Below are positions 15,965-43,818 of a stretch of 64,000 nt of DNA, piece by piece. The notes below the pieces were generated by a model. The model was not told where the DNA came from. It saw nothing but the letters and a program-made list of their open reading frames with translations, and searched no databases. The position numbers and the translations under genes were made by a program. Location of the stretch: positions 1 to 64,000 of IMG/VR virus record IMGVR_UViG_3300026549_000071; one strand, written 5' to 3'. Position 1 is the first letter of the stretch, and each line of letters starts with the position of its first letter. This stretch comes from a virus (lineage: Duplodnaviria; Caudoviricetes).

Positions 15965-16900
15965 AAAACAATTTTCAATTTTTGTGTTAAAAATAAAAAG
16001 CCGTATACAAGTTACTAAACCCCCCATAAACAAAATTTTAAAAGGTAATTCATATAAATCCATTTTATATAAAAATGGTGTTGTAATTATTTTTTAATGC
16101 TTTTCCTAGGGGGGTTTTCGTAGCTTTAACTATTCAAAAAAACACGGGTGTTTTTTTGAATTATTAATAGCTTCGAACTCATATAACTACGAAATACTAT
16201 TACTCATTGCTTATACTAACTACTTTTACTACGAATATTATTACCCAATACTTCTACGAAATTATACCATATAACATTCATAAAATGAATATAATATCTG
16301 TGATATGTTTATATAAACCTTGGTAAAAATACTATCAACTATAAAGAGTTGATAGTATCTATTTTATCTGTATAAATCACTGACGAGTGATTAAGATTGA
16401 TGGGAATATATGGGTATGATAATCAGTATAGTTACATATATTTTCATATTTGCAAGAATACATATGGGTTTTGTTTTCACATAGTGAAAACAAAACCCAT
16501 GTAGACTGATTAGGAGTGTAACAGTATCCGAGAGTAATATAGTATCTATAGGGAGTATAATTAGTATGATAGGGATACATACGGGTATTAGGGTAATACT
16601 AAGTATTACCCTAATACCCGTATGTATAGTATAGAACTGTTTTATATCAATCTTTACTATAGAGATGTATATTAGCGTAACACATGTATTACCCTGGATT
16701 ATATATTCTGTACGGTAGAGTATATAATTAATTTTTTTCTGTAACGAAAAGTAGTATTTACCCTCTAAGTTTTACAAATGATAAACTTCACTCTGAATTT
16801 CCCTAGGGGAGAAATCGAGCTAAGTTTAACAAATGTAAAACTTAGGGGTAGAAAAGATGATATGAGTGATTGAAATGTATCACTCATATCATCTTTTTTG
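15965..16900. repeat. Non-coding palindrome-dense region, candidate replication origin
   Basis: Perfect inverted repeats at 16132-16161, 16329-16358, 16464-16500 and 16575-16627; (A)CTACGAA x3; local switch from C-rich to G-rich. Confidence 0.55.
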
Positions 16901-16947
16901 TTACCGTATATGGATTTTATATCTATATAGGAGAAATCATAGTTATC

Positions 16948-19880: not shown

Positions 19881-19920
19881 AAAAAAGAAAGGAACCGTAA
19901 CTAGAATGATTCCTTTCTTT
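19881..19920 (-). terminator. Cassette 1 terminator with TTCTAGT in its loop
   Basis: Minus strand AAAGAAAGGAATC-ATTCTAGTTAC-GGTTCCTTTCTTTTTT. Confidence 0.75.
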
Positions 19921-19935
19921 GGTCTTTAGATAAGA

Positions 19936-20088
19936 TTAGTTCTTATCTTGACCTTCAAGCTCACGGAGCCTAAGTTGCAGCGTCTTTTCGACGGATACCT
20001 TATAGGCTTCTTTGAGCTGGGCAGTTCTGTCAAACCGCCCTTCGATGGCATCCGGTTTGTGCCACCAATAGAGAAGATCTCTAGGCAT
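19936..20088 (-). CDS. Cassette 1 peptide, 50 aa (MPRDLLYWWHKPDAIEGRFDRTAQLKEAYKVSVEKTLQLRLRELEGQDKN)
   Basis: Missed by the ORF track; AGAAAGGAG RBS; paralogue at 30317-30469. Confidence 0.8.
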   Translation of the reverse strand: MPRDLLYWWHKPDAIEGRFDRTAQLKEAYKVSVEKTLQLRLRELEGQDKN

Positions 20089-20096
20089 GAGGATCA

Positions 20097-20157
20097 TCTC
20101 CTTTCTGCTCCTAGTTCGGGAGCTATGGATGAAGCATTTCTAGTATGCTTCATCCAT
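20097..20157 (-). promoter_or_regulatory. Cassette 1 two-hairpin 5' leader
   Basis: Hairpin 20125-20157 (loop ACTAGAA) and hairpin 20107-20123 (loop CGAACTA), then the RBS. Confidence 0.75.
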
Positions 20158-20233
20158 TCTATTGTATTTATAATATATACTTGAAATTTTGTAATAAAAA
20201 AAAGAAGGACTTGGAAATTTCCAAGTCCTTCTT

Positions 20234-25280: not shown

Positions 25281-25424
25281 TTTGATTCATCTCCTTTCGG
25301 ATCATAGTAAAATGCGTCTATGTAAACATCGAGTCCATCGCATTTCTCGATGATTGATACTTATACAATATCTATTCATATATTATGAAAACCGATATTC
25401 CTTTGAAATATATATTATTCATCT

Positions 25425-26356
25425 AGTTACATAGAAATCGATTTTTGATTGACATGATAATAGCGAAAATTGATCTATGAAAATCATGGATATTTAAATT
25501 CGTTGATGCACAAACTTAGACTCAATTTGTCTATATATGGGATAAGTACCATTCAGTACGTGGAAACGTCAAAGACTTTGCGAGTGGGTTGGTGCTATAC
25601 ACGGGTCAATAATTTCGATCTTATCTCGGCAAATGAAGAGTGATCTTCATTTGTTTATCGATTCCTTAATAATTGCTCTTTCTGTCATAGAGAGAATAAG
25701 CATGGAGGAACGAATGTATCCTTCCCATGTAAAATCCTTAAGGATATCCAGAGTGAGGGATCATGAATGGGATAGAGGGCAATCTAAGATTCCAATTGAA
25801 TAATCTTAGGTATTAAAACGTTTCCTCTTGAGCTTCGTGAACTTGCTAGGGAGAAGATTTGAATGGACCTCGATATCGAATGATGAGATCAATGAGTAAG
25901 TCATATTTGGATGATTATGATACGAATAGATATAAGACCAAACGAGCATTCTCATTCGGTTATGATTGGATAAAATGACAGTAGATATAGATCATAAGAA
26001 ATTCGTCGTATAGTAAGATACAGCTTGATTTGTTGGTAGGCAATCATAGTAGAATTTCTTTGGTTAACTCATGATAAAACTCCCGTCATGTATATCGAGT
26101 ATCGTTGCAATACGATACTTTAACAATGGGATGTGTAGATATATACTACCTATCATATCGGTATAATATACAATCTATTTTGGATTTGTATATTCATCGT
26201 TCATTTAAGGTAAAGATGCATTGAAAAGACGCTAGAAAATTATCACTGGTTATTTCATCCTATAGATGAATCTCACAAATAATTTGCCTTAAGGAGAAGA
26301 ACGATTTTAACATACAGAAAATACAAAGGATGGATTCTTTCCATCCTTTGTATTTT
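25425..26356 (+). ncRNA. Candidate large structured non-coding RNA of about 0.8-0.9 kb
   Basis: No ORF of 60 aa or more on either strand; promoter motif at 25409; many stems with GNRA loops; 17-bp terminator at 26318-26356; 5' end uncertain. Confidence 0.6.
26318..26356 (+). terminator. Intrinsic terminator
   Basis: Perfect 17-bp stem followed by a T-run. Confidence 0.8.
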
Positions 26357-26400
26357 TATTTTGGCTTTCACAGTTTAGTATATAGAAGGAGTGTAAGAAT

Positions 26401-26895
26401 ATGAAAGGTAACGAAAAGTTTAAAATGTATACCTTATACGTTGGAAATATTCCAGTTGTATTTTGTGCAGATCGATGGCTAATTGAGCTGTATATTGTAC
26501 AACGGAAGTTAGTCGAAAAGAAGTATCAATTTCATCAGGATACCTATGATACGTCCATGTATAAAGAGTTTGATGATTATCTTGTATACTATTATGGTTA
26601 TGCAGTCACGCAACGAGAGCTTAAATATATCGTCAACTCAACAGAGGAATATGAATCGTTTCGGAAGTATAAGATTCATTCTCTTCAAGGATTTCTAGAG
26701 CGTTTTAATCATACATTAAAGAAATCGGAAAAGAAAGCACTTAAAGAAACGATCAAAATCCTAAAGAAGTATACATGCGAAAATGATGACTTTATTGAGT
26801 CACAGATTGATACCATCCTAAACCATAATGATATGGTAAAGGATTATATGGATGCAACGGATATGTTCCGAATGCATATGGAAGGAGAAATTTAA
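26401..26895 (+). CDS. Hypothetical protein
   Basis: AAGGAG RBS; CACA-N6-TA motif at 26369. Confidence 0.7.
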   Translation: MKGNEKFKMYTLYVGNIPVVFCADRWLIELYIVQRKLVEKKYQFHQDTYDTSMYKEFDDYLVYYYGYAVTQRELKYIVNSTEEYESFRKYKIHSLQGFLERFNHTLKKSEKKALKETIKILKKYTCENDDFIESQIDTILNHNDMVKDYMDATDMFRMHMEGEI

Positions 26896-26896
26896 G

Positions 26897-27706
26897 TTGA
26901 GAGATATTAAACTCATTGCAATTGATGGATTAGATGGAACTGGGAAAACAACCTTTGCAAAATTCTTATCCAATGATCTTCAATCGGATTATTATACGAA
27001 TAAGAAGTATGATGCAAGATACCAGCATTTCCCAGTCTATGAATTACAATCTGGAAAGAAGATCAAAGATTTTCTCTTCCATGAACCAGAACCATACAAG
27101 AGAGAAAATATTCTCAAAATGATTGATCTGCAAGAAACGAATCGAATGGAATGGACAGATCGTTTGATCTGGGATGACGTTTTAGTTCAAGATGACCGTC
27201 CATTGCTGATGATTGCAGATCGTTACATGCGTTCGAATGACATTTACAACGAAACAAGACTTCCGGATTGGAAGGAACGCTGTATCAATGCAGGAGAACG
27301 TGAATATGGAGATCATGCTATTCCAAGACCGGATCTCCAAATTTTTTGTTACTGTAACAGAAATCTTCAACGGAAGCGTTTAGAAGCAAGAAAGAATTTG
27401 GATCAGTATGAAGCATTAGATCATCTAGATGAACTGAATGATCGTTATATTACTTATTTGAAATGGTATATGACGATTGATCGTTTCAAGAGAAATACGG
27501 TATTTATTCCCATGCACTTATTTGATCGAGAATTTCTGAAAGAATCTCTGGATAATAAAAAATGGAATACGTACTATAAGGAAATTTTGAAAGATTACCT
27601 TAGTATTTTCCGTAAGTACATTCTTTCTCAGGAAACGAAAGAAGAATTCGTGAAAGAAATCAATGAACTCCATGAAGAAGAATTCAATGCTTACTTGGAG
27701 TCATAA
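26897..27706 (+). CDS. tmk: Thymidylate/dNMP kinase-like protein
   Basis: IAIDGLDGTGKTT P-loop and IADRY motif; TTG start behind GAAGGAG. Confidence 0.75.
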   Translation: MRDIKLIAIDGLDGTGKTTFAKFLSNDLQSDYYTNKKYDARYQHFPVYELQSGKKIKDFLFHEPEPYKRENILKMIDLQETNRMEWTDRLIWDDVLVQDDRPLLMIADRYMRSNDIYNETRLPDWKERCINAGEREYGDHAIPRPDLQIFCYCNRNLQRKRLEARKNLDQYEALDHLDELNDRYITYLKWYMTIDRFKRNTVFIPMHLFDREFLKESLDNKKWNTYYKEILKDYLSIFRKYILSQETKEEFVKEINELHEEEFNAYLES

Positions 27707-28619: not shown

Positions 28620-28961
28620 ATGAAAATGAGTAAGACCAAACAACGAAAGGAATTGATCCTTCAACGTAAAAAAGATAAATATGGATATTTTGGTCTGTTC
28701 CGGATAGAAGAGGTTTATCCCTTCCAATTGTATATGCAAAGGTATAAGCACTTCAAACTAGCTGTAACCCAAGGAAATGAACTCATTCATATGATAAAAG
28801 ACGGTTTACACGTCATTGTATGGTACGATGAAAAACTGCGGCAATGTTGCTCGAATCGATATGGAATGTGCATGTGGTATGTTTACCATACGTTTGATGA
28901 AGAATATATGGAAGACTTTTTAGCATATGAAAAGGAGCATGAAATTTATTATGCAATCTAA
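28620..28961 (+). CDS. Hypothetical protein
   Basis: 113-aa ORF overlapping the thyX start. Confidence 0.6.
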   Translation: MKMSKTKQRKELILQRKKDKYGYFGLFRIEEVYPFQLYMQRYKHFKLAVTQGNELIHMIKDGLHVIVWYDEKLRQCCSNRYGMCMWYVYHTFDEEYMEDFLAYEKEHEIYYAI

Positions 28962-29823
28962 AGTTAATGTAAAACGAGTAGGAAATGGTGAAGTTGTTTT
29001 AATTGCTGGTGGTGGAAAAGTATACAGCGATATTGCAGCAAGGTTCTGTCGTACGGAGAAAGATGTTCATGATATCATTGCATCTCCGTATAATAAGAAA
29101 CTGGTTCAAACTATTTTGGATTCTGGTCATTATGCTGCAACAGAATTTGACTACTTCATCTTTGGAATCCAAGGTTACTCTCGTGTAACCGAAACTCAAT
29201 TGGTTCGCAAGCGTTTAGCCAGTTATTTGATTAAATCTGGTCGTGCAGAAGAGCACGGGAAACGAAACTTTGATGTTGTTCTTCCGAAAGATCAGAGATT
29301 ATTGGATCTTCCCAGAGGAGAAGTTCATCTGGATCCATCTCAAGTGATTGTGGAATATAAAGATGGAGTTAAGATCTCTTTGGAACAGGTGGTTCCATGT
29401 TCTACAGCAGAAGTGTATCTGAATAGTGCACAACTGTTAGATGCAATGGCATCATTCTATGATGATGCTGTGTTGAATCATGGAATTAAAGAAGAAGACG
29501 CACGTTACTTTAAACCTCAAGCAACGGAGTTCAAAGCAATTATTGGAATGAATGCCCATGCATTACGGGATTGGTTTAAGATTCGTTGCTGCAATCGAGC
29601 ACAATCTGAAATCCGTGATCTTGCATGGAAAATGCTTCGTTTATGCAAAGAAGCTGCTCCAGATCTCTTTGAAGGTGCTGGACCTAGTTGTGTTGCACTT
29701 GGTCTTTGCCCAGAGATGGAACAGTGTGAGCAGAATAAAGGAAAGATTCCTACATTGAAAGCATTTAAAGAAGCAAAAAATACGAAAGAATACAAAGACT
29801 TTGCAAAAGTCATGATGAAATAA
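28951..29823 (+). CDS. thyX: FAD-dependent thymidylate synthase ThyX
   Basis: GHYAATEF, SRVTETQLVRKRLASYLIKSGR (RHRx7S-type motif), EDARYFKP, MNAHALRDWFKIRCCNRAQSEIR. Confidence 0.9.
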   Translation: MQSKVNVKRVGNGEVVLIAGGGKVYSDIAARFCRTEKDVHDIIASPYNKKLVQTILDSGHYAATEFDYFIFGIQGYSRVTETQLVRKRLASYLIKSGRAEEHGKRNFDVVLPKDQRLLDLPRGEVHLDPSQVIVEYKDGVKISLEQVVPCSTAEVYLNSAQLLDAMASFYDDAVLNHGIKEEDARYFKPQATEFKAIIGMNAHALRDWFKIRCCNRAQSEIRDLAWKMLRLCKEAAPDLFEGAGPSCVALGLCPEMEQCEQNKGKIPTLKAFKEAKNTKEYKDFAKVMMK

Positions 29824-30246
29824 AAAAGATACCATAGATACGCCACCAACGTATCTATGGTATCTTAGTTGTTTTTGAGTTAATAAGAACGACTCCAACG
29901 AAAAACCAAAATTCCCGAAAACAATTGAAATCGCCCTTATATTTCTCTGACGAAACGATAAGGAATGAAGCAAAATTATCTACGTGATGTATTGCCATGA
30001 CCTCAGTCGTTTTTACTCGCCATTTGTTTGTGAGTTCTACCTACGTCATCTTAGATTTTAAACACATCCAATCTAAAAATCTTTACGATCCCACCCAAAG
30101 ATCGTTTTCAATAGAACTTTCAGTCTTTAATTTTTATCTTCACACATTTATCGAAAGCTTTCAATAGTATGTTTACACTAATTAAAAAAATTTACATCTT
30201 CATCCTATGAACTTTCATTTCATGTATATATTATTACCATAAGATA

Positions 30247-30307
30247 ATGAGCTAAGCATACTAGAAATGCTTAGCTCATAGCTCCCGAACTAGGAGCAGA
30301 AAGGAGG
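30247..30307 (+). promoter_or_regulatory. Cassette 2 two-hairpin 5' leader
   Basis: Hairpin 30247-30279 (loop ACTAGAA), hairpin 30281-30297 (loop CGAACTA), then AGAAAGGAGG; promoter motif at 30225. Confidence 0.75.
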
Positions 30308-30316
30308 ATCACCCAA

Positions 30317-30469
30317 ATGGATAAATCCATCCTCTATTGGTGGCATAAACCGAATGCCATCGAAGGGCGTTTCGATAGAGATGCCCAATTGAAAGAGGCT
30401 ATTGAACAAGTAAAGCGTGCACAACGTTTATTCGATAGCCTTGAGGAGAAGGATAAGAAAGTTTCTTAA
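30317..30469 (+). CDS. Cassette 2 peptide, 50 aa (MDKSILYWWHKPNAIEGRFDRDAQLKEAIEQVKRAQRLFDSLEEKDKKVS)
   Basis: Missed by the ORF track; clear paralogue of 19936-20088. Confidence 0.8.
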   Translation: MDKSILYWWHKPNAIEGRFDRDAQLKEAIEQVKRAQRLFDSLEEKDKKVS

Positions 30470-30481
30470 TCCTTAACTCAG

Positions 30482-30521
30482 AAAGAAAGAAGCTATTCTA
30501 GTTACGGCTTCTTTCTTTTTT
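30482..30521 (+). terminator. Cassette 2 terminator with TTCTAGT in its loop
   Basis: AAGAAAGAAGC-TATTCTAGTTACG-GCTTCTTTCTTTTTT. Confidence 0.75.
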
Positions 30522-32836: not shown

Positions 32837-32880
32837 AAGAGTTCTTCAGCCTTTCGAGTATATATTATATACTTAATAAA

Positions 32881-32938
32881 ATGGATCAAGCAGACTAGAA
32901 CTGCTTGATCCATCGTTCCCGAACTAGGAACAGAAAGG
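32881..32938 (+). promoter_or_regulatory. Cassette 3 two-hairpin 5' leader
   Basis: Hairpin 32881-32913 (loop ACTAGAA), hairpin 32915-32931 (loop CGAACTA), then AGAAAGG; promoter motif at 32859. Confidence 0.75.
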
Positions 32939-32950
32939 CTGGTGAGTCCC

Positions 32951-33094
32951 ATGACTAAGGAATCCCCTTGGGAGAAGTTACTCCCAAATGAAAAACTTGT
33001 CCCCACAAGTTTGACAAAACAGGCGATCCTTGATTGTGCTGACGTTCTGCGTACGCATAAAATGATTCGCCTGATTCCTGGATGGTGTAAATAA
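32951..33094 (+). CDS. Cassette 3 peptide, 47 aa (MTKESPWEKLLPNEKLVPTSLTKQAILDCADVLRTHKMIRLIPGWCK)
   Basis: Missed by the ORF track; occupies the same slot as the peptides of cassettes 1 and 2 but is unrelated in sequence. Confidence 0.65.
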   Translation: MTKESPWEKLLPNEKLVPTSLTKQAILDCADVLRTHKMIRLIPGWCK

Positions 33095-33110
33095 CACTAT
33101 TTAGGAAATG

Positions 33111-33147
33111 AAGGAAGAAGTATTTCTAGTATGCTTCTTTCTTTTTT
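33111..33147 (+). terminator. Cassette 3 terminator with loop exactly TTCTAGT
   Basis: AAGGAAGAAGTAT-TTCTAGT-ATGCTTCTTTCTTTTTT. Confidence 0.75.
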
Positions 33148-33258: not shown

Positions 33259-33633
33259 ATGGCAAAATATATTATGAATGCGGTCTCTGGTAACATGTTC
33301 GATCTCAGCAAGGAATTCGATCTTTGCTGGAAGCCATTGAGCTTGAACGATGTTAAGAAACTTCTGAAACAGGGGGACTGGAAGTCCGTGCTCGGGCACG
33401 ATGACATCGCAAATCTTTTGAGTGAAATGACCGGTTATCATCTTGAGAAAAACCGTGTCAATAATACGCTCGAATTCGGTGATAGTGCAATTCTTGCACA
33501 GTACAAAGGGCCGAGACTCGAAGAGGGAGCGACGAAGCTTCCGAAAGGTGCAACTATCCAGTTTGCACTCGTGTATCCCGCAGAGCATATTAGCCGCCAA
33601 TATATTGGCAACGGTGAAACGCTCGAAGGATAA
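33259..33633 (+). CDS. DUF1874 / STIV B116 / YddF-like small protein
   Basis: YIMNAVSGNM...SVLGHDDIANLLSEMTG..LEKNR....GD......PRLEEG matches my recollection of that family pattern. Confidence 0.65.
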   Translation: MAKYIMNAVSGNMFDLSKEFDLCWKPLSLNDVKKLLKQGDWKSVLGHDDIANLLSEMTGYHLEKNRVNNTLEFGDSAILAQYKGPRLEEGATKLPKGATIQFALVYPAEHISRQYIGNGETLEG

Positions 33634-38858: not shown

Positions 38859-38949
38859 GGAGCGGTACTCAAGCGGTCGAAGAGGTCAGTCTTGAAAACT
38901 GAGAGACCATTCATTTGGTGCGTGGGTTCGAATCCTACTCGCTCCGCCA
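38859..38949 (+). tRNA. trnS: tRNA-Ser(TGA)
   Basis: Acceptor GGAGCGG/TCGCTCC, anticodon loop CTTGAAA, long variable arm, TTCGAAT T-loop, encoded CCA. Confidence 0.92.
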
Positions 38950-38955
38950 TTTTAT

Positions 38956-39029
38956 TCTGGCGTAGTTTAATGGTAAAGCACTTCCCCTCCAAGGAAGATT
39001 TGTGGGTTCAATCCCCATCGCCAGATCCA
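38956..39029 (+). tRNA. trnG: tRNA-Gly(TCC)
   Basis: Acceptor TCTGGCG/CGCCAGA, loop CCTCCAA, U discriminator, encoded CCA. Confidence 0.9.
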
Positions 39030-39035
39030 TTTTAT

Positions 39036-39111
39036 AGCCCTTTAGCCAAGTTGGTAAAGGCATAGCGCTTTGACCGCTAGATCGCTGGTTCGATCCCAGC
39101 AAGGGTTGCCA
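39036..39111 (+). tRNA. trnQ: tRNA-Gln(TTG)
   Basis: Acceptor AGCCCTT/AAGGGTT, loop CTTTGAC, encoded CCA. Confidence 0.9.
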
Positions 39112-39115
39112 TTTT

Positions 39116-39186
39116 AGGGTCATAGTTTAATGGTAGAACAACGGTCTCCAAAACCGTTAGTCATCGTTCGAGTCGATGTGATCCTG
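39116..39186 (+). tRNA. trnW: tRNA-Trp(CCA), 3' CCA not encoded
   Basis: Acceptor AGGGTCA/TGATCCT, loop CTCCAAA, T-arm CATCG-TTCGAGT-CGATG. Confidence 0.88.
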
Positions 39187-39310
39187 CACACATGCCCCAA
39201 TTAAGGGACTTTATATATGTTAGATGGTAATTTCATTTTGTTTGACAAATTTCTGAACCGCTCTTTGCTCATGGATCTCAGAAATACTCCCTTTCATGAA
39301 ATTACTTTCT

Positions 39311-39362: not shown

Positions 39363-40523
39363 TTATCCTTTTTCATACATATCTTTCAACTGATGTTTCA
39401 ACTCTACAAGGAGTTTCTGTGAAAACATCGTTGGAAGAATACCAATCGTTTGACGTGCAAGAACCGATGTTGCAGGAATGCAAGACTCAATTGGCTCATT
39501 TGGACGATCAAGAGTATAGGGAGCTTGATCATCTGGAATGACCAAGGCTACTGTTCCTTTCAAGGCCAGATGATGAGCCATTTTGTCACCAGGTTTCATA
39601 TTATCAGTAAATTTGATATAGAACTCAATGATGACTCCGTGTTCAATCTTATATCCTTTGACAGCACCTGCTGCATTTGGTTTTACAGGTCCATCAATCT
39701 CATAGAAGGTACTTCCTTGATCGGATGGATCGGTAATCTTATATTTCCGAATCAGTTTCTTCTTCTCACGAATTCCCTTCCAGTATTTATCAACGATACT
39801 ACCAAGAGATTTCGAGAGATCAGAGATTTCTTCTGTGCTATAGATGCGAATCTCATCTACAACCCCAGAGTATTTTGAGCTCAACGTATTCTTTGCCATG
39901 GATTTAATATCTTCCCGAAGATCTTTACCAATACCACGGAGCAAGCGGTTTACGGATTCTTCATCTGCGGATTGCTCATACGTAATTAATGGCTGACCAA
40001 CGAGAATCTTATCTCCGACGTTTACAATCTGGGATACCGTAGCATTCGGACCAAGAATGAGATGCTTTTGCATAACCATCTCCGTTCCCATACGTTTACT
40101 TAAACCTTCCGTAATCATATTGGAATCTTCAAAGGTCGCAAATGAACTCATAATGGCAATCTTAGAAAGCGTACCAAGATTGAACTTGGCTCCATCATAA
40201 TGATAGCTATAGTAATCCTTATTCTGTGCGAGAATATCATCTTTCTTAAAACGTTGACCTACCTTATACATAGGCAACATCTTATTTTCCAGATAGAATC
40301 CACCACCGGCATTCTTCACCATAATGCCATTCAGATTAATGGCTTCATATTTCCCATTCTTATATTCTGCTACCATCATATTCGTCTTTTTATCAAATTC
40401 CACAATTTTACCATCGTCCTGTGCTTTAATGACAAAGTCTTTCGATGCCATATAAGGCATCGCTTTTTCAATGCCAGTAGATAACAGAACCGGGCACATA
40501 TCTTTTACTGGAATCAAATGTTT
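39363..40523 (-). CDS. rpoB: Phage RNA polymerase beta (large piece), exon 2
   Basis: TFEDS (GYNFEDS equivalent), PGDKMAHHLALKG (GDKMAGRHGNKG equivalent), ends after VLARQTIG; joins exon 1 in frame. Confidence 0.88.
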   Translation of the reverse strand, partial: KHLIPVKDMCPVLLSTGIEKAMPYMASKDFVIKAQDDGKIVEFDKKTNMMVAEYKNGKYEAINLNGIMVKNAGGGFYLENKMLPMYKVGQRFKKDDILAQNKDYYSYHYDGAKFNLGTLSKIAIMSSFATFEDSNMITEGLSKRMGTEMVMQKHLILGPNATVSQIVNVGDKILVGQPLITYEQSADEESVNRLLRGIGKDLREDIKSMAKNTLSSKYSGVVDEIRIYSTEEISDLSKSLGSIVDKYWKGIREKKKLIRKYKITDPSDQGSTFYEIDGPVKPNAAGAVKGYKIEHGVIIEFYIKFTDNMKPGDKMAHHLALKGTVALVIPDDQAPYTLDRPNEPIESCIPATSVLARQTIGILPTMFSQKLLVELKHQLKDMYEKG

Positions 40524-40821
40524 CGTTGTATTCACATGGGTCGTTAATCCATGCAGTTCTCTTATGAACTTCTATATGTCACCATATAGTCCAGACTATA
40601 TCTTTATTCCTATTACTAGGAATTGCTCCATTTCGATTTAAGGGATTTTCACCCACTCACTTGAGCCCTACTCCTATTGCCGAATTTCACGGCTCCATTT
40701 GGATAGTCGTTGAACCTTCTCTTTCGAGCTTGGCTGCTGATTGTCTCTTTTTAAATAGAGAGTTCCCAGCAATTAAGAGCTAGGAGAATCATAGATTACT
40801 CTATGAAACGAACTAAATTTA
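40524..40821 (-). mobile_element. Group I self-splicing intron (IA-like, 298 nt, no homing endonuclease ORF)
   Basis: P AAUUGCUGGGAAC (40762-40774), Q GACAAUCAGCAGCC (40732-40745), R UUCAACGACUA (40704-40714), S AAGAUAUAGUCU (40593-40604); 5' exon ends in U, intron ends in G; splicing restores ASKQN-KHLIPV. Confidence 0.92.
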
Positions 40822-43818
40822 ATTCTGCTTCGAGGCCATAGCGGTACGAATGGCATCATCCATGGTAACACCAATGCCATTCACAAGTTCCGAATAACCA
40901 AAGAGTTTCGTCTGATCCATTTGATCAGGAGATTCTTTGCAATCAATGAAACCTCTTGTATTGGTTACTTTCGGATCAATGGTCAATTCACGTACCACAC
41001 CACAGTTTGCATCTGGAGATGTACTAATCGTCATACAGCCAATCATCGTTTGATCAAAGCAACGTTTTTCTTTTGTATAAGAACGTTCTAGGTTGATACC
41101 AGAAGGTCCTTTACATGTGATTGCACGTTCCTTTTCTTTTTCTGTGATTGGATTAATGATTGACACATCTTCTACGACGTTACTCGTCAAGATTTCTTTG
41201 ATGATAGCATCTTTCGGTAACGAAATCTTTTCTGGTGTTGCATATTTTGCCTTACGTTTGTAATTGGAGTATGATGCAGAAAGTGCTTTATAGAGATAAG
41301 CACTAATCATTTCCAAGTTACGTACACGGAATTCTGTTAAGGAAAGTTCCGATGAGGAAGCATTATCCGACAGAAGATCGGACGCTGCAAGCATCAATTG
41401 TACGAAATCCGTAGGCAAATCCATTTGCTTTAAGATCTCTTCACTGATTGGATCAATCATATTATCATAATACGCATCCAAACCAGATGCCAATGCACGA
41501 TTGCTATACTTCATATCAAAGAAATCCAAGTATGGCATTTGTGTATCGAAATCAGAATAGTTATATGCTTTCGTATCAATAAATGTCAATCCGCTCATAA
41601 GAAGAGAATGAGCCGTTGGAGTTAAGCTGTATACGAGATACCCATCTGCGAACTGAATGGCTGCTTGATCAACTCCAAGATCTCTCGGATTCTTATCCGT
41701 AAAATGATACTGAATACCTTCCTTATTCATGACGGTTGTTAAACCTTCAAAATAGCTAAGGAAGATAATACTCGGAATCATCTTATTCATAACCTTGCAA
41801 GCAGAATACATGAAACGCTTACCTGGTTTATCTTTTGGACCTTGAAGATCCCAGAAGTTCTTTCCAGTTTCTTTCTCATAGATATGAACGAATGTATCAA
41901 TAGGTCCATTTAACGTTTCTTTTCCATCATCTTTTTCCGTTCCATCGGATTCAATGGGACAGACGTATGCTTTTATCTTTGCATTCTCACGTCCATCATA
42001 AACACAGTAAATGTATTTATCATCATTGATATCTTCCAGTTTCTTATCATGGCGAAGTTCATCATAGAACTTTTGATCAAACTTCAAACCGATTCCTTTT
42101 CCACGAATGGTAATCCCTGAGAATTCTTTTGCAAGAGAATCATACTCAATCGAAGTCATATGACCATTATTGACACCCATACCATTTCCTCGTTTTACCT
42201 TGAAAATGGCAGGATTATTTGCAATGATTTTCTTGAAGATCGTTACCTTCGGAGAAACTGTATCGCCTAAACGATATACAAAGATCTTATTATAGTTCGT
42301 GCAAACCTGAACACGATCCGCAGAGATTTTAATCAACGGTTTCAAAATCTGCTGATTGACGAATTGCTTTCTGTTACCAGCAAGATAGAGATAGTTGTTA
42401 TCATAGACCTTAGGAATATCTACCGTGACACTGTGACGAACTCCATCTTCCGTCTGAAGTTTTACCGTCCAAGTTTCCTTCAGATCCATTGCAGTTGATG
42501 TATCTTCACGTTTGATGTTCGTAATCACAGCAGGAAGATTTTTCTTCTTATTCAGGGAACGAAATACATTGATGATATCCTTATCCTTGACGTTTTCATT
42601 ATACGATTTATTGATGTTATCGAAACGAATTTTCTTTACGCTCTTATTTGGCGTAAAGAGTTTATCCGAGATATCGTCCGATTCAATCGTATAATCAATC
42701 TTTGAAGTATCTTCCAAATCTCCTAAGGAGATATTATCCAACTTCAGTTCTTTCTGTTTCTGACGAAGTGCTTGAAAACGTTTATTTTCCGGAGCTGTAC
42801 GATTCATCTCCTGAAAATTCGTATCAATGGCTTTCTTCGCCAATTCCATCTCATCTTCAGTAAGTTCTTCATGTGTTTTGACAGGATCTTCCTCTGTAAG
42901 ATCTGCCTTTGGTTCTTTTTTATCAACGATTGTAGTCGATGCAGGAGTAGGAACTGCACGAGGAGATGATTTATCTTCCTCTTCTTTTTCCTTCTGCTGA
43001 ATCTTTTCAACTTCTTTTTCTTTCTCGATTTTCTCTTCTTCCGTTTCTGGAGAGAGATCCAAATTGATTTCTTTTGATTTGCATTTATTCATGCAAGAAT
43101 AGAGTTTCATACTGATTTCTTTTTCCGTATGACTCATATCCCAGTAGAACAAACCAAACGTATCATCGAGAATAATCAATGTATAATCCTTTAATGGCTC
43201 TAAACCTTCAGGATCTTTCTTTAGGAGTTCATAAAACATTGAAATCGGATTCATCATCTTCTGATTAATGCTCATGACTTTCGAACGATTACTGGTACTA
43301 ATTCCCCACGATTTCGTATCCAAAATCAGGTAACGGTGTTCATGGTTCAATCCAGCACAAACTGTTTTCAGGTAACGAGCAAGATGCCGCACATACGATT
43401 TGCAGAGTATGGGATAATTCTTTCCCTTAGAATGTTCCAAGAAAGCACTATTTACATCACTCGTATCCACAAAGATATTCTTATTACGAACTCCCGCTGG
43501 TTTCGTATAGAGTGTTAATTTGAGTTTCTTTACATCATTCGACAGTGTTGCGATTTCACTTGCATCCATCTTTTCACGGATGGTTGTTGTGAAGATCTTA
43601 TCCGTATAACGAAACGGTTTATAATACCGAGCAAATTTAGAGTCTCGATACAGTAACAGATTCTTCAAGATATCTGAACACTGTGTTGGGTTTTTAATCA
43701 AGAGACCAATGAAAGTTCCTTCCAAAGGTTTCTTTGGATCATATGGGAGTCGGGTAAGTGTGGTCTTATATTTCAATTCACCATAGTCTTCCAGTTTATT
43801 CGCCATATGAGAATTCAC
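40822..43818 (-). CDS. rpoB: Phage RNA polymerase beta (large piece), exon 1; spliced product 1385 aa
   Basis: RAITCKGPSG, STSPDANCGVVREL and DDAIRTAMASKQ align with RpoB LGPGG, ETPEGPNIGL and DDANRALMGANMQ; long N-terminal extension. Confidence 0.88.

What the first reader, a model, noticed from the sequence alone, without database searches (positions are those of the whole stretch)
30225..30521. Family of three dispersed mini-cassettes sharing a covarying two-hairpin RNA leader with invariant loops
Seen: three sites (19881-20179 minus, 30225-30521 plus, 32859-33147 plus) share one architecture: TATATATTAT promoter motif, 13-bp hairpin 1, 5-bp hairpin 2, AGAAAGG RBS, 47-50 aa ORF, terminator. 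The hairpin 1 stems differ (ATGGATGAAGCAT, ATGAGCTAAGCAT, ATGGATCAAGCAG), yet every change is compensated on the other arm and the loop is always ACTAGAA. Hairpin 2 is GCTCC/GGAGC or GTTCC/GGAAC, again compensated, with the constant loop CGAACTA. None of the three ORFs appears in the ORF track. Inference: this is a selected RNA (or ssDNA) structure acting as a reusable expression module for small early proteins. I do not recognise it as a named riboswitch or leader.
Basis: partly seen in the sequence, partly recalled or inferred. Interest (0 to 1): 0.88.

Follow-up and report, generated by a model that had tools for sequence, protein, structure and literature searches.

The report
Hairpin-packed mini-gene cassettes in jumbo phage
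An uncultured relative of the Bacillus giant phage AR9 carries four copies of a self-contained ~280-base early gene unit whose whole messenger RNA appears selected to fold into hairpins, with the loop of the first 5' hairpin exactly complementary to the terminator loop; it matches no catalogued RNA family, and its expression and function are untested.

Summary
Three sites in the window share one layout: GTATATATTAT, a 13-bp hairpin (loop ACTAGAA), one base, a 5-bp hairpin (loop CGAACTA), AGAAAGG, a 47-50 aa ORF and a terminator. A fourth copy lies on an adjoining contig of the same phage. All 18 leader pairs hold in 7 distinct sequences. Six pairs changed on both sides and one became G-U. Rfam has no match, even at E 10.

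The promoter word matches the early (virion RNA polymerase) promoter of phage AR9, and the window encodes an AR9-like polymerase beta subunit.

New here:
- The terminator loop core TTCTAGT never varies and is the exact complement of the hairpin-1 loop.
- The whole transcripts are extraordinarily structured (z -9 to -10; ORF parts alone -6 to -7), more on the sense strand than the antisense.
- The ORFs are real coding genes.
- Cargo and flanks recombine.

Best reading (0.45): a portable RNA module that makes compact, nuclease-resistant "closed" early mRNAs through a 5'-3' loop-loop contact. Rivals are loop-specific binding by a trans factor, or a DNA-level recombination cassette.

The family was found only in this one phage lineage, and only in metagenomes. 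Transcription could not be checked. The scan had noted the cassettes and their complementary loops before, on this same genome only.

The parts
30224..30234 (+). Cassette A promoter word GTATATATTAT; predicted start of the RNA at 30241
   Evidence: Matches the AR9 early promoter consensus AAATATATATTAT-6N-G(+1). The start site is inferred, not mapped.
30247..30279 (+). Cassette A hairpin 1: 13-bp stem, loop ACTAGAA (30260-30266)
30281..30297 (+). Cassette A hairpin 2: 5-bp stem, loop CGAACTA
30298..30307 (+). Cassette A Shine-Dalgarno AGAAAGGAGG
   Evidence: AGAAAGG is invariant in all copies
30317..30469 (+). ORF A, 50 aa, paralogue of ORF C and ORF D
   Evidence: differences biased to third codon positions
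30481..30521 (+). Cassette A terminator; loop core TTCTAGT (30496-30502) is the reverse complement of the hairpin-1 loop
32858..32868 (+). Cassette B promoter word; predicted start at 32875
32881..32913 (+). Cassette B hairpin 1, loop ACTAGAA (32894-32900)
32915..32931 (+). Cassette B hairpin 2 (GTTCC/GGAAC), loop CGAACTA
32951..33094 (+). ORF B, 47 aa, unrelated to ORFs A, C and D
33110..33147 (+). Cassette B terminator, 7-nt loop TTCTAGT (33124-33130). Its 21-nt apex is the reverse complement of the hairpin-1 apex of copies C and D at 20 of 21 positions.
   Evidence: apex comparison read from the sequences
20170..20180 (-). Cassette C promoter word; predicted start at 20163
20125..20157 (-). 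Cassette C hairpin 1, loop ACTAGAA
20107..20123 (-). Cassette C hairpin 2, loop CGAACTA
19936..20088 (-). ORF C, 50 aa
19881..19921 (-). Cassette C terminator, loop core TTCTAGT (seen as ACTAGAA at 19900-19906 on the + strand)

Best explanation
These are four paralogous, self-contained early transcription units of an uncultured AR9/PBS1-like jumbo phage of a probable Firmicute host. Each has a virion-RNA-polymerase-type promoter, a monocistronic RNA of about 275-283 nt, and an intrinsic terminator, followed 25-35 nt later by the next promoter. The two-hairpin leader is one end of an RNA-level design. About two thirds of the sense transcript is paired in a chain of hairpins. The 7-nt loop of hairpin 1 is the exact complement of the conserved 7-nt core of the terminator loop. 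I propose that the module makes compact, long-lived mRNAs for small helical proteins. Hairpins 1 and 2 sit about 6 nt from the 5' end and would block 5'-end-dependent decay (RNase J1/Y type). The terminator would block 3' exonucleases. A 7-bp loop-loop (kissing) contact would tie the ends together. The dense pairing would leave few single-stranded targets. Because the flanks are shared, they also serve as portable homology, so cargo ORFs are swapped and paralogues exchange sequence. Shown here: the architecture, the compensated stems, the loop conservation and complementarity, the extreme fold stability with a sense-strand bias, the coding signature and the recombinant variants. Inferred: the transcription start, early timing, the kissing contact and the stabilising effect.
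For: - Promoter: TATATATTAT is 8-fold over-represented (24 hits against 3.0 expected). It sits before SD-ATG units, and the 7th base after it is a purine in 30 of 31 exact motifs. This matches the AR9 consensus.
- Phage identity: the window encodes an RNA polymerase beta fragment whose best hits are AR9/PBS1 (36% aa); the AR9 gene is annotated as a virion polymerase subunit.
- Leader: 100% paired, 6 doubly changed pairs, and one G-U in relative L023.
- Divergence among the 4 paralogues per compared site: hairpin-1 arms 0.22, 5' single strand 0.25, hairpin-1 loop 0.07, hairpin-2 loop 0, SD 0, terminator loop core 0.
- TTCTAGT is unchanged in 7 distinct terminator variants, while bases next to it and the stems vary.
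- ACTAGAA/TTCTAGT occurs 9 times in the window, 6 of them in cassette loops. CTAG is depleted genome-wide (70 against 216 expected), yet each cassette holds three.
- The loop-loop duplex is -7.2 to -7.7 kcal/mol. The one loop variant (C to U) still pairs as U-G.
- Whole transcripts have z of -10.4, -9.6 and -9.3. The ORF-only parts have z of -6.9, -5.8 and -6.1.
- Cassettes C and A are the two most structured of 1058 windows of 280 nt in the contig.
- The sense strand is 10-14 kcal/mol more stable than the antisense, with 8-10 G-U pairs.
- An ORF-B internal hairpin keeps pairing through two double changes that alter amino acids in L068 (read from its sequences).
- Relative L023 has lost the 5' half of ORF A but keeps the leader and terminator loops.
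Against:
- The kissing contact has no compensatory double change behind it, only conservation and one wobble-compatible change.
- A contig of an unrelated genome (L069) carries the 3' part of ORF B and the TTCTAGT terminator at 90.6% identity without any hairpin-1/2 leader. So the terminator loop can persist without its proposed partner.
- The hairpin-2 loop is the most conserved piece, and the kissing model does not explain it.
- Gene conversion between paralogues (the A/D chimera L067) could homogenise the loops without selection.
- A 6-nt single-stranded 5' end may be long for full protection from 5' decay (my own recollection of B. subtilis work, not checked here).
- Most other predicted early transcripts of this phage have no 5' hairpin (median fold energy equals background). 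The design is therefore not a general need of early mRNAs.
Confidence: 0.45

Rival explanations
1. The loops are recognition sites for a trans-acting factor. This could be a phage or host RNA-binding protein or ribonuclease (a translational repressor or early-mRNA shut-off of the T4 RegA/RegB type), or a small RNA carrying CUAGU. It would co-regulate the four small-protein mRNAs. The stems would only present the loops.
For: Loop sequences are far more conserved than stems. Hairpins 1 and 2 both display ACUAG. The hairpin-2 loop is invariant and the kissing model leaves it unexplained. A hairpin that pairs AAAGGAG with codons 6-7 and encloses the start codon is kept in copies A, C and D, which suggests that translation is regulated. 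Only these four units share the leader.
Against: No candidate factor was identified. The terminator loop carries the complement, not the same word, so a single RNA-binding specificity cannot cover all three loops. No other TTCTAGT or CTAGTT hairpin loop that could serve as a trans RNA was seen in 139 kb of this phage.
Confidence: 0.25
2. It is primarily a DNA-level element. On this view it is a repeated promoter/terminator cassette bounded by inverted hairpin repeats. It drives modular shuffling by homologous recombination, as PeSLs do in T4-type phages, or is a relic of a small mobile element. Perfect palindromes would be maintained by template switching or gene conversion, and the RNA structure would be a by-product.
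For: The cargo of cassette B is unrelated to that of A, C and D between conserved flanks. L067 is an A/D chimera. L069 has the ORF B 3' part and terminator in a foreign genome. L023 has a 75-bp deletion inside the cassette. The terminator apex of B is an inverted copy of the hairpin-1 apex of C/D (20 of 21 positions), so each unit has inverted-repeat ends. All leader pairs in the window are Watson-Crick. A four-base block differs between stems with perfect compensation, as a single template-switch event would give.
Against: Structure extends through the coding regions of unrelated ORFs and is stronger on the sense strand, with 8-10 G-U pairs per transcript that would be A-C mismatches on the other strand. 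The only stem change seen among close relatives is a G-U on the sense strand. No transposase was seen. No cassette presence/absence polymorphism was found among relatives. Target duplications were not looked for. Recombination explains spread, but not why the loops are held while the stems drift.
Confidence: 0.15
3. The two adjacent hairpins act on the transcribing polymerase, as a put-like antiterminator or a pause/attenuator signal. They would let it read through, or stop before, the cassette terminator.
For: Two stem-loops separated by a single base, just after the start site, resemble HK022 put RNA in outline (my own knowledge). A terminator follows within 250 nt.
Against: Each downstream gene has its own TATATATTAT promoter right after the cassette terminator, so read-through is not needed. 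Hairpin 1 has no U-run after it on the sense strand. Put RNA acts on the host polymerase, not on a phage multisubunit enzyme. Nothing was tested directly.
Confidence: 0.05
4. The copies are recent duplicates with no special function. The similarity would simply be what remains of a young gene duplication.
For: All copies come from one phage lineage. Leaders are 85-90% identical.
Against: Third codon positions of the paralogous ORFs differ at about one site in three. Stems differ at 22% of sites, always with compensation. The 21 loop-core positions plus the SD show only one variant. Cassette B has a different ORF. Fold z-scores of -9 to -10 are not a by-product of duplication.
Confidence: 0.05

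Closest known systems
PeSLs (promoter-early stem-loop cassettes) of T4-type phages (Arbiol et al. 2010, PMC2839356; Comeau et al. 2014, PMC4122927)
   Same: Both are repeated composite regulatory motifs (strong early promoter, stem-loop/terminator, SD) that flank small genes of unknown function. In both, recombination between copies shuffles cargo. Here that shows as unrelated ORF B, the A/D chimera and cargo found in a foreign genome.
   Different: PeSLs use sigma-70 promoters, and their stem-loop lies in or upstream of the promoter and works as a terminator. Here the promoter is of the AR9 virion-polymerase type. The two conserved hairpins lie inside the transcript. The loops are sequence-constrained, the 5' and 3' loops are complementary, and the coding region is also strongly structured.
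5'/3'-UTR interaction of B. subtilis hbs mRNA (Braun et al. 2017, PMC5737220), and 5' stem-loop plus strong-SD stabilisers of Gram-positive mRNAs (own knowledge: aprE, ermC, phage SP82 leaders)
   Same: [quoted passage not shown]
   Different: In hbs the contact is a 14-bp linear duplex that overlaps an RNase Y site. Here it would be a 7-bp loop-loop contact between two hairpins. It is repeated on four mRNAs and is not demonstrated.
Type I toxin mRNAs such as hok or fst (own knowledge)
   Same: Very small ORF in a compact, highly structured, stable mRNA with 5'-3' end communication and an SD/start enclosed in a hairpin.
   Different: The proteins here are hydrophilic and predicted to be one long helix, not membrane peptides. 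No antisense RNA gene or promoter was found.
AR9 early transcription units (Lavysh et al. 2017, PMC5312081)
   Same: The same promoter word and spacing to a purine start, and a related virion RNA polymerase.
   Different: The leader model finds nothing in AR9, Staphylococcus phage PALS_2 or Listeria phage LPJP1. The paper's text has no occurrence of 'hairpin' or 'stem-loop'.

Membership tests
Any Rfam 15 family | Score at or above the family's gathering threshold | tested here: not met
   A gathering-threshold scan of the whole window finds only 4 tRNAs and a group I intron. At E up to 10 on cassettes A and B nothing overlaps the leader; there is only noise on the terminators.
PeSL-type mobile regulatory cassette | Repeated composite of early promoter, stem-loop and SD flanking small accessory ORFs | tested here: met
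   Four copies share promoter, hairpins, SD and terminator. The promoter class differs (AR9 type).
PeSL-type mobile regulatory cassette | The stem-loop lies within or upstream of the promoter and acts as terminator for upstream transcription | tested here: not met
   Hairpins 1 and 2 start 23 nt after the promoter word, inside the predicted transcript, and have no U-run after them on the sense strand.
PeSL-type mobile regulatory cassette | Recombination between copies causes insertion, deletion or replacement of ORFs (and mini-circles) | tested here: inconclusive
   Unrelated cargo in B, A/D chimera L067, ORF B plus terminator in a foreign contig L069, internal deletion in L023. No empty sites or circles were observed.
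5' stabiliser stem-loop (Gram-positive type) | Stable hairpin within a few nt of the mRNA 5' end, followed by a strong ribosome binding site | tested here: inconclusive
   Hairpin 1 begins 6 nt after the start predicted from the AR9 rule, and AGAAAGG(AGG) follows hairpin 2. The 5' end is not mapped.
5' stabiliser stem-loop (Gram-positive type) | Removal shortens mRNA half-life | not testable with these tools
   Needs a reporter assay.
5'/3'-UTR interacting mRNA (hbs-like) | Conserved complementarity between the 5' and 3' untranslated regions | tested here: met
   ACUAGAA against UUCUAGU in all four copies and all variants; one copy pairs with a U-G.
5'/3'-UTR interacting mRNA (hbs-like) | The interaction forms and alters nuclease access | not testable with these tools
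   Needs structure probing and compensatory mutants.
Type I toxin-antitoxin mRNA | Small hydrophobic membrane peptide and a cis or trans antisense RNA | tested here: not met
   The peptides are charged and predicted helical. The promoter listing shows no inward-facing exact promoter word at the cassette 3' ends.
AR9-type early (virion RNA polymerase) transcription unit | TATATATTAT, 6 nt, purine start; phage encodes a virion multisubunit polymerase | tested here: met
   Motif statistics and spacing. The polymerase beta fragment best matches AR9 g189, annotated as a virion polymerase subunit. Promoter activity is inferred by analogy.

The most novel reading that the evidence does not exclude
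The cassettes encode 'armoured', end-joined mRNAs. A conserved kissing contact between the first 5' hairpin and the terminator, plus selection for pairing along the whole message (even at the cost of amino-acid changes), would make early small-protein mRNAs that resist host RNases or RNA-guided or RNA-cleaving defences. A ring-nuclease-like anti-type-III-CRISPR gene sits next to cassette B. Alternatively, the complementary loops could let the four RNAs pair with each other in trans. Either would be a new post-transcriptional strategy for phages.
Probability: 0.3. Interest if true: 0.8.

Novelty: new variant of a known kind. Interest (0 to 1): 0.56.

Why it matters
Little is known about post-transcriptional control in jumbo phages that bring their own RNA polymerases, and catalogued phage cis-regulatory RNAs are few. 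This is a compact, repeated and clearly selected RNA design: leader, structured coding region and a complementary terminator loop. It can be tested with simple reporters in B. subtilis. If the 5'-3' loop contact stabilises or gates the message, it would add a bacterial or phage counterpart of mRNA end-joining and a portable high-expression part for Gram-positive hosts. The cassettes also show cargo exchange between shared regulatory flanks outside the T4-type phages. The limits are a narrow distribution (one uncultured lineage) and no expression data.

Tried and rejected
- Megablast of 5 kb against GenBank phages: no match.
- Loop-pattern scans: viral contigs gave 5 chance hits. Metagenome contigs gave 16 hits, of which only L023 is real. 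Genome contigs gave 12 chance hits.
- Hairpin-2-plus-SD pattern scan: only the fourth copy.
- Hairpin-1 apex pattern scan: 16 hits, all one conserved coding stretch of an unrelated phage gene and not hairpins.
- Terminator pattern scan: low-complexity hits.
- Leader model on AR9, PALS_2 and LPJP1: nothing. Relatives cannot be drawn for a virus record. No close polymerase relatives in IMG/VR.
- Small proteins: no PHROG. A Pfam scan was run only on the large ORFs, not on these small proteins. The profile search of 1.8 billion proteins found only this lineage plus two translated CRISPR-array artefacts. The protein atlas was uninformative. The fold is a single long helix at pLDDT 72, and I did not search with it.
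- Idea that 5' hairpins are general to this phage's early RNAs: rejected.
- Ideas that hairpin 2 is a tRNA T-arm or anticodon-arm mimic, or that the loops relate to an amber suppressor: rejected by inspection. The four phage tRNAs are Ser, Gly, Gln and Trp.
- The first sliding-fold script timed out; I repeated it on a coarser grid.

Full report
**What is there.**
- In each, the G of GTATATATTAT lies 23 nt before a perfect 13-bp hairpin with the loop ACTAGAA.
- One base later comes a 5-bp hairpin with the loop CGAACTA.
- AGAAAGG follows at once, and an ATG lies 12-13 nt further on.
- The ORFs have 50, 47 and 50 codons. A hairpin plus T-run closes the unit.
- The next TATATATTAT-like word follows within about 25-35 nt.

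**The leader fold.** ViennaRNA returns the two-hairpin fold as both MFE and centroid for all three (z -4.5 to -5.4). A covariance model built from them scores the three sites at 95-96 bits. Nothing else in the 74-kb contig scores above 30 bits. The next best hits are the opposite strands of the cassettes' own terminators.

**Which phage.**
- The window is part of a 74-kb IMG/VR contig estimated at 30% of a genome.
- It encodes an RNA polymerase beta fragment interrupted by a group I intron.
- The best database relatives of that fragment, at only about 36% identity, are Bacillus phages PBS1/AR9 and Staphylococcus and Listeria jumbo phages. The matching AR9 gene is annotated as a virion polymerase subunit.
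- AR9 early promoters have the consensus AAATATATATTAT-6N-G(+1) and are read by the injected virion polymerase (PMC5312081).
- In this window the word, allowing one mismatch, occurs 24 times against 3.0 expected.
- It stands before SD-ATG units, and the 7th base after it is a purine in 30 of 31 exact copies.

So the cassettes are very probably early units, with RNA starts near 30241, 32875 and 20163, six bases before hairpin 1. This is an inference by analogy.

**More copies and relatives.**
- A pattern scan found a fourth copy (D) on IMG/VR contig G001. Its first 1109 bases equal the end of this contig at 99.8%. It is therefore the same phage, about 55 kb further on.
- Near-identical orthologues of A, B, C and D occur in contigs from ENA, JGI and Logan assemblies.
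- Nothing similar exists in AR9, PALS_2 or LPJP1.
- Nothing real turned up in scans of viral, metagenome and genome collections, nor in Rfam, even at E up to 10.

**Is the leader structure selected?**
- On seven distinct leader sequences every one of 126 pair cells is a standard pair. Six pairs changed on both sides, and one became G-U in relative L023.
- Sliding the partner by 1-3 columns drops pairing to 29-45%.
- Among the four paralogues the hairpin-1 arms differ at 22% of compared sites and the 5' single strand at 25%.
- By contrast, the hairpin-1 loop differs at 7% (a single C-to-U in one metagenomic version of D). The hairpin-2 loop, the SD and the terminator loop core do not differ at all.
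- The paralogous ORFs differ mostly at third codon positions. They are therefore real genes, and the copies are not young.

Caveat: all of this comes from paralogues of one lineage, and these do exchange sequence. L067 is an A/D chimera.

1. Every cassette terminator carries TTCTAGT in its loop, the exact reverse complement of the whole hairpin-1 loop.
   - The 7-mer is unchanged in seven distinct terminator variants, although the neighbouring loop bases and the stems vary.
   - The 7-mer pair occurs nine times in the window, six of them in these loops. CTAG is threefold depleted genome-wide.
   - The loop-loop duplex is worth -7.2 to -7.7 kcal/mol, and the one loop variant still pairs through U-G.
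   - The apex of the B terminator is an inverted copy of the C/D hairpin-1 apex at 20 of 21 positions (sequences).
   - Another note of this scan on the same genome had also spotted the complementarity. I had found it independently and tested it.
2. The whole predicted transcripts are extraordinarily structured.
   - z is -10.4, -9.6 and -9.3. The SD-to-stop parts alone still give -6.9, -5.8 and -6.1, including the unrelated ORF B.
   - Cassettes C and A are the two most structured of 1058 windows of 280 nt in the contig.
   - The sense strand is 10-14 kcal/mol more stable than its complement, with 8-10 G-U pairs. This points to RNA rather than duplex or cruciform DNA.
   - RNAalifold keeps two ORF-internal hairpins across A, C and D, one with a doubly changed pair.
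   - In the B orthologue L068 an internal hairpin keeps pairing through two double changes that also change amino acids.
3. The parts recombine.
   - Cassette B has unrelated cargo.
   - L023 has lost 75 bp, including the ORF A start, yet keeps the leader and terminator loops.
   - L069 carries the ORF B 3' part and its terminator at 90.6% identity in an otherwise unrelated genome, without the leader.

**How it most likely works.** I commit, at 0.45, to a cis-acting RNA module that makes compact, long-lived early mRNAs for small helical proteins.
- Two 5'-proximal hairpins and the terminator guard the ends.
- A 7-bp kissing contact joins them.
- The dense pairing limits endonuclease access.
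- The shared flanks double as recombination handles.

The nearest documented mechanism is the 14-bp 5'/3'-UTR pairing that modulates RNase Y cleavage of B. subtilis hbs mRNA (PMC5737220). The nearest documented genome-level analogue is the PeSL cassettes of T4-type phages (PMC2839356). It is not a member of either. PeSL stem-loops lie in or before sigma-70 promoters and act as terminators. The hbs contact is a linear duplex.

**Points against my reading.**
- There is no expression evidence.
- No compensatory change links the two loops.
- The hairpin-2 loop is unexplained.
- The L069 terminator persists without a leader.
- Gene conversion may explain the loop invariance.

**Rivals.** The rivals I weigh are:
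- loop-specific recognition by a protein or RNA (0.25), helped by a conserved hairpin that encloses the SD and start codon in A, C and D;
- a mainly DNA-level recombination or mobile cassette (0.15);
- a put-like signal to the polymerase (0.05);
- functionless recent duplicates (0.05).

**The cargo.** ORFs A, C and D share an N-terminal core (LYWWHKP.AIEGRFDR) followed by a variable helical tail. AlphaFold gives one long helix at pLDDT 72. No family was found. The only distant profile hits are translated CRISPR arrays and are spurious. ORF B is unrelated and equally without relatives.

**Verdict.** This is a real, non-random, selected RNA architecture that matches no catalogued family. It is best called a new variant of known kinds (phage regulatory cassette; structured leader with 5'-3' communication). 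It is confined, as far as the searchable data show, to one uncultured jumbo-phage lineage, and its function is inferred only.

Noticed in passing
window 25409-26357: An ORF-poor unit of about 900 nt between a TATATATTAT word and a strong bidirectional terminator. Earlier notes of this scan flag it as a candidate large non-coding RNA. Its predicted 5' end reads AGTTAC, preceded by CT, and shares the 8-mer CTAGTTAC with the cassette terminator loops. That may be chance.
   Followed up: no
window 16241-16940: Several adjacent 280-nt windows rank among the most structured of the contig on both strands (residual z -2.4 to -4.2), in a stretch without a large ORF.
   Followed up: no
window 40572-40830 (-); G001:59889-59958: A group I intron (Rfam, 90.7 bits) splits the RNA polymerase beta gene (39363-40535 and 40819-43818). 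A 76-nt piece 92% identical to window 40701-40776 recurs on the adjoining contig, which suggests a second intron copy.
   Followed up: partly
window 38859-39187: A cluster of four tRNA genes: Ser-UGA, Gly-UCC, Gln-UUG and Trp-CCA. There is no suppressor tRNA.
   Followed up: yes
whole window: CTAG is threefold depleted (70 observed against 216 expected from base composition). The window's nine cassette CTAGs are 9 of the 79 CTAGs in the 74-kb contig.
   Followed up: partly
window 33259-33633 (+): The gene right after cassette B matches PF08960 STIV_B116-like in the orthologous contig's gene table, and phrog_5063.
   Followed up: no
window 26852-27706 and 28927-29823: Thymidylate kinase and ThyX (PF02223 and PF02511 in the orthologue's gene table) in a relative of the uracil-DNA phages AR9/PBS1. 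This phage may make thymine DNA.
   Followed up: no
window 4549/4554, 13617/13622, 15955/15960, 25106/25111; contig G000 64083/64088: Many promoter words sit as back-to-back pairs on opposite strands (TATATATTAT overlapping TATATATTCT/TTT), which suggests divergent early promoters sharing one palindromic core.
   Followed up: no
G000:64088 (-), window 19835 (-), G001:61697 (+), G001:62971 (+): A few other predicted early RNAs begin with their own strong 5' hairpins (6-14 bp) unrelated in sequence to hairpin 1. The one at G001:62971 starts GAAGCATAC, like the hairpin-1 apex.
   Followed up: partly
proteins P0006, P0007: The only distant profile hits of the small-protein family are about 460-aa 'proteins' made of three repeated peptide words. 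They are evidently translated CRISPR arrays in the protein library, not relatives.
   Followed up: yes
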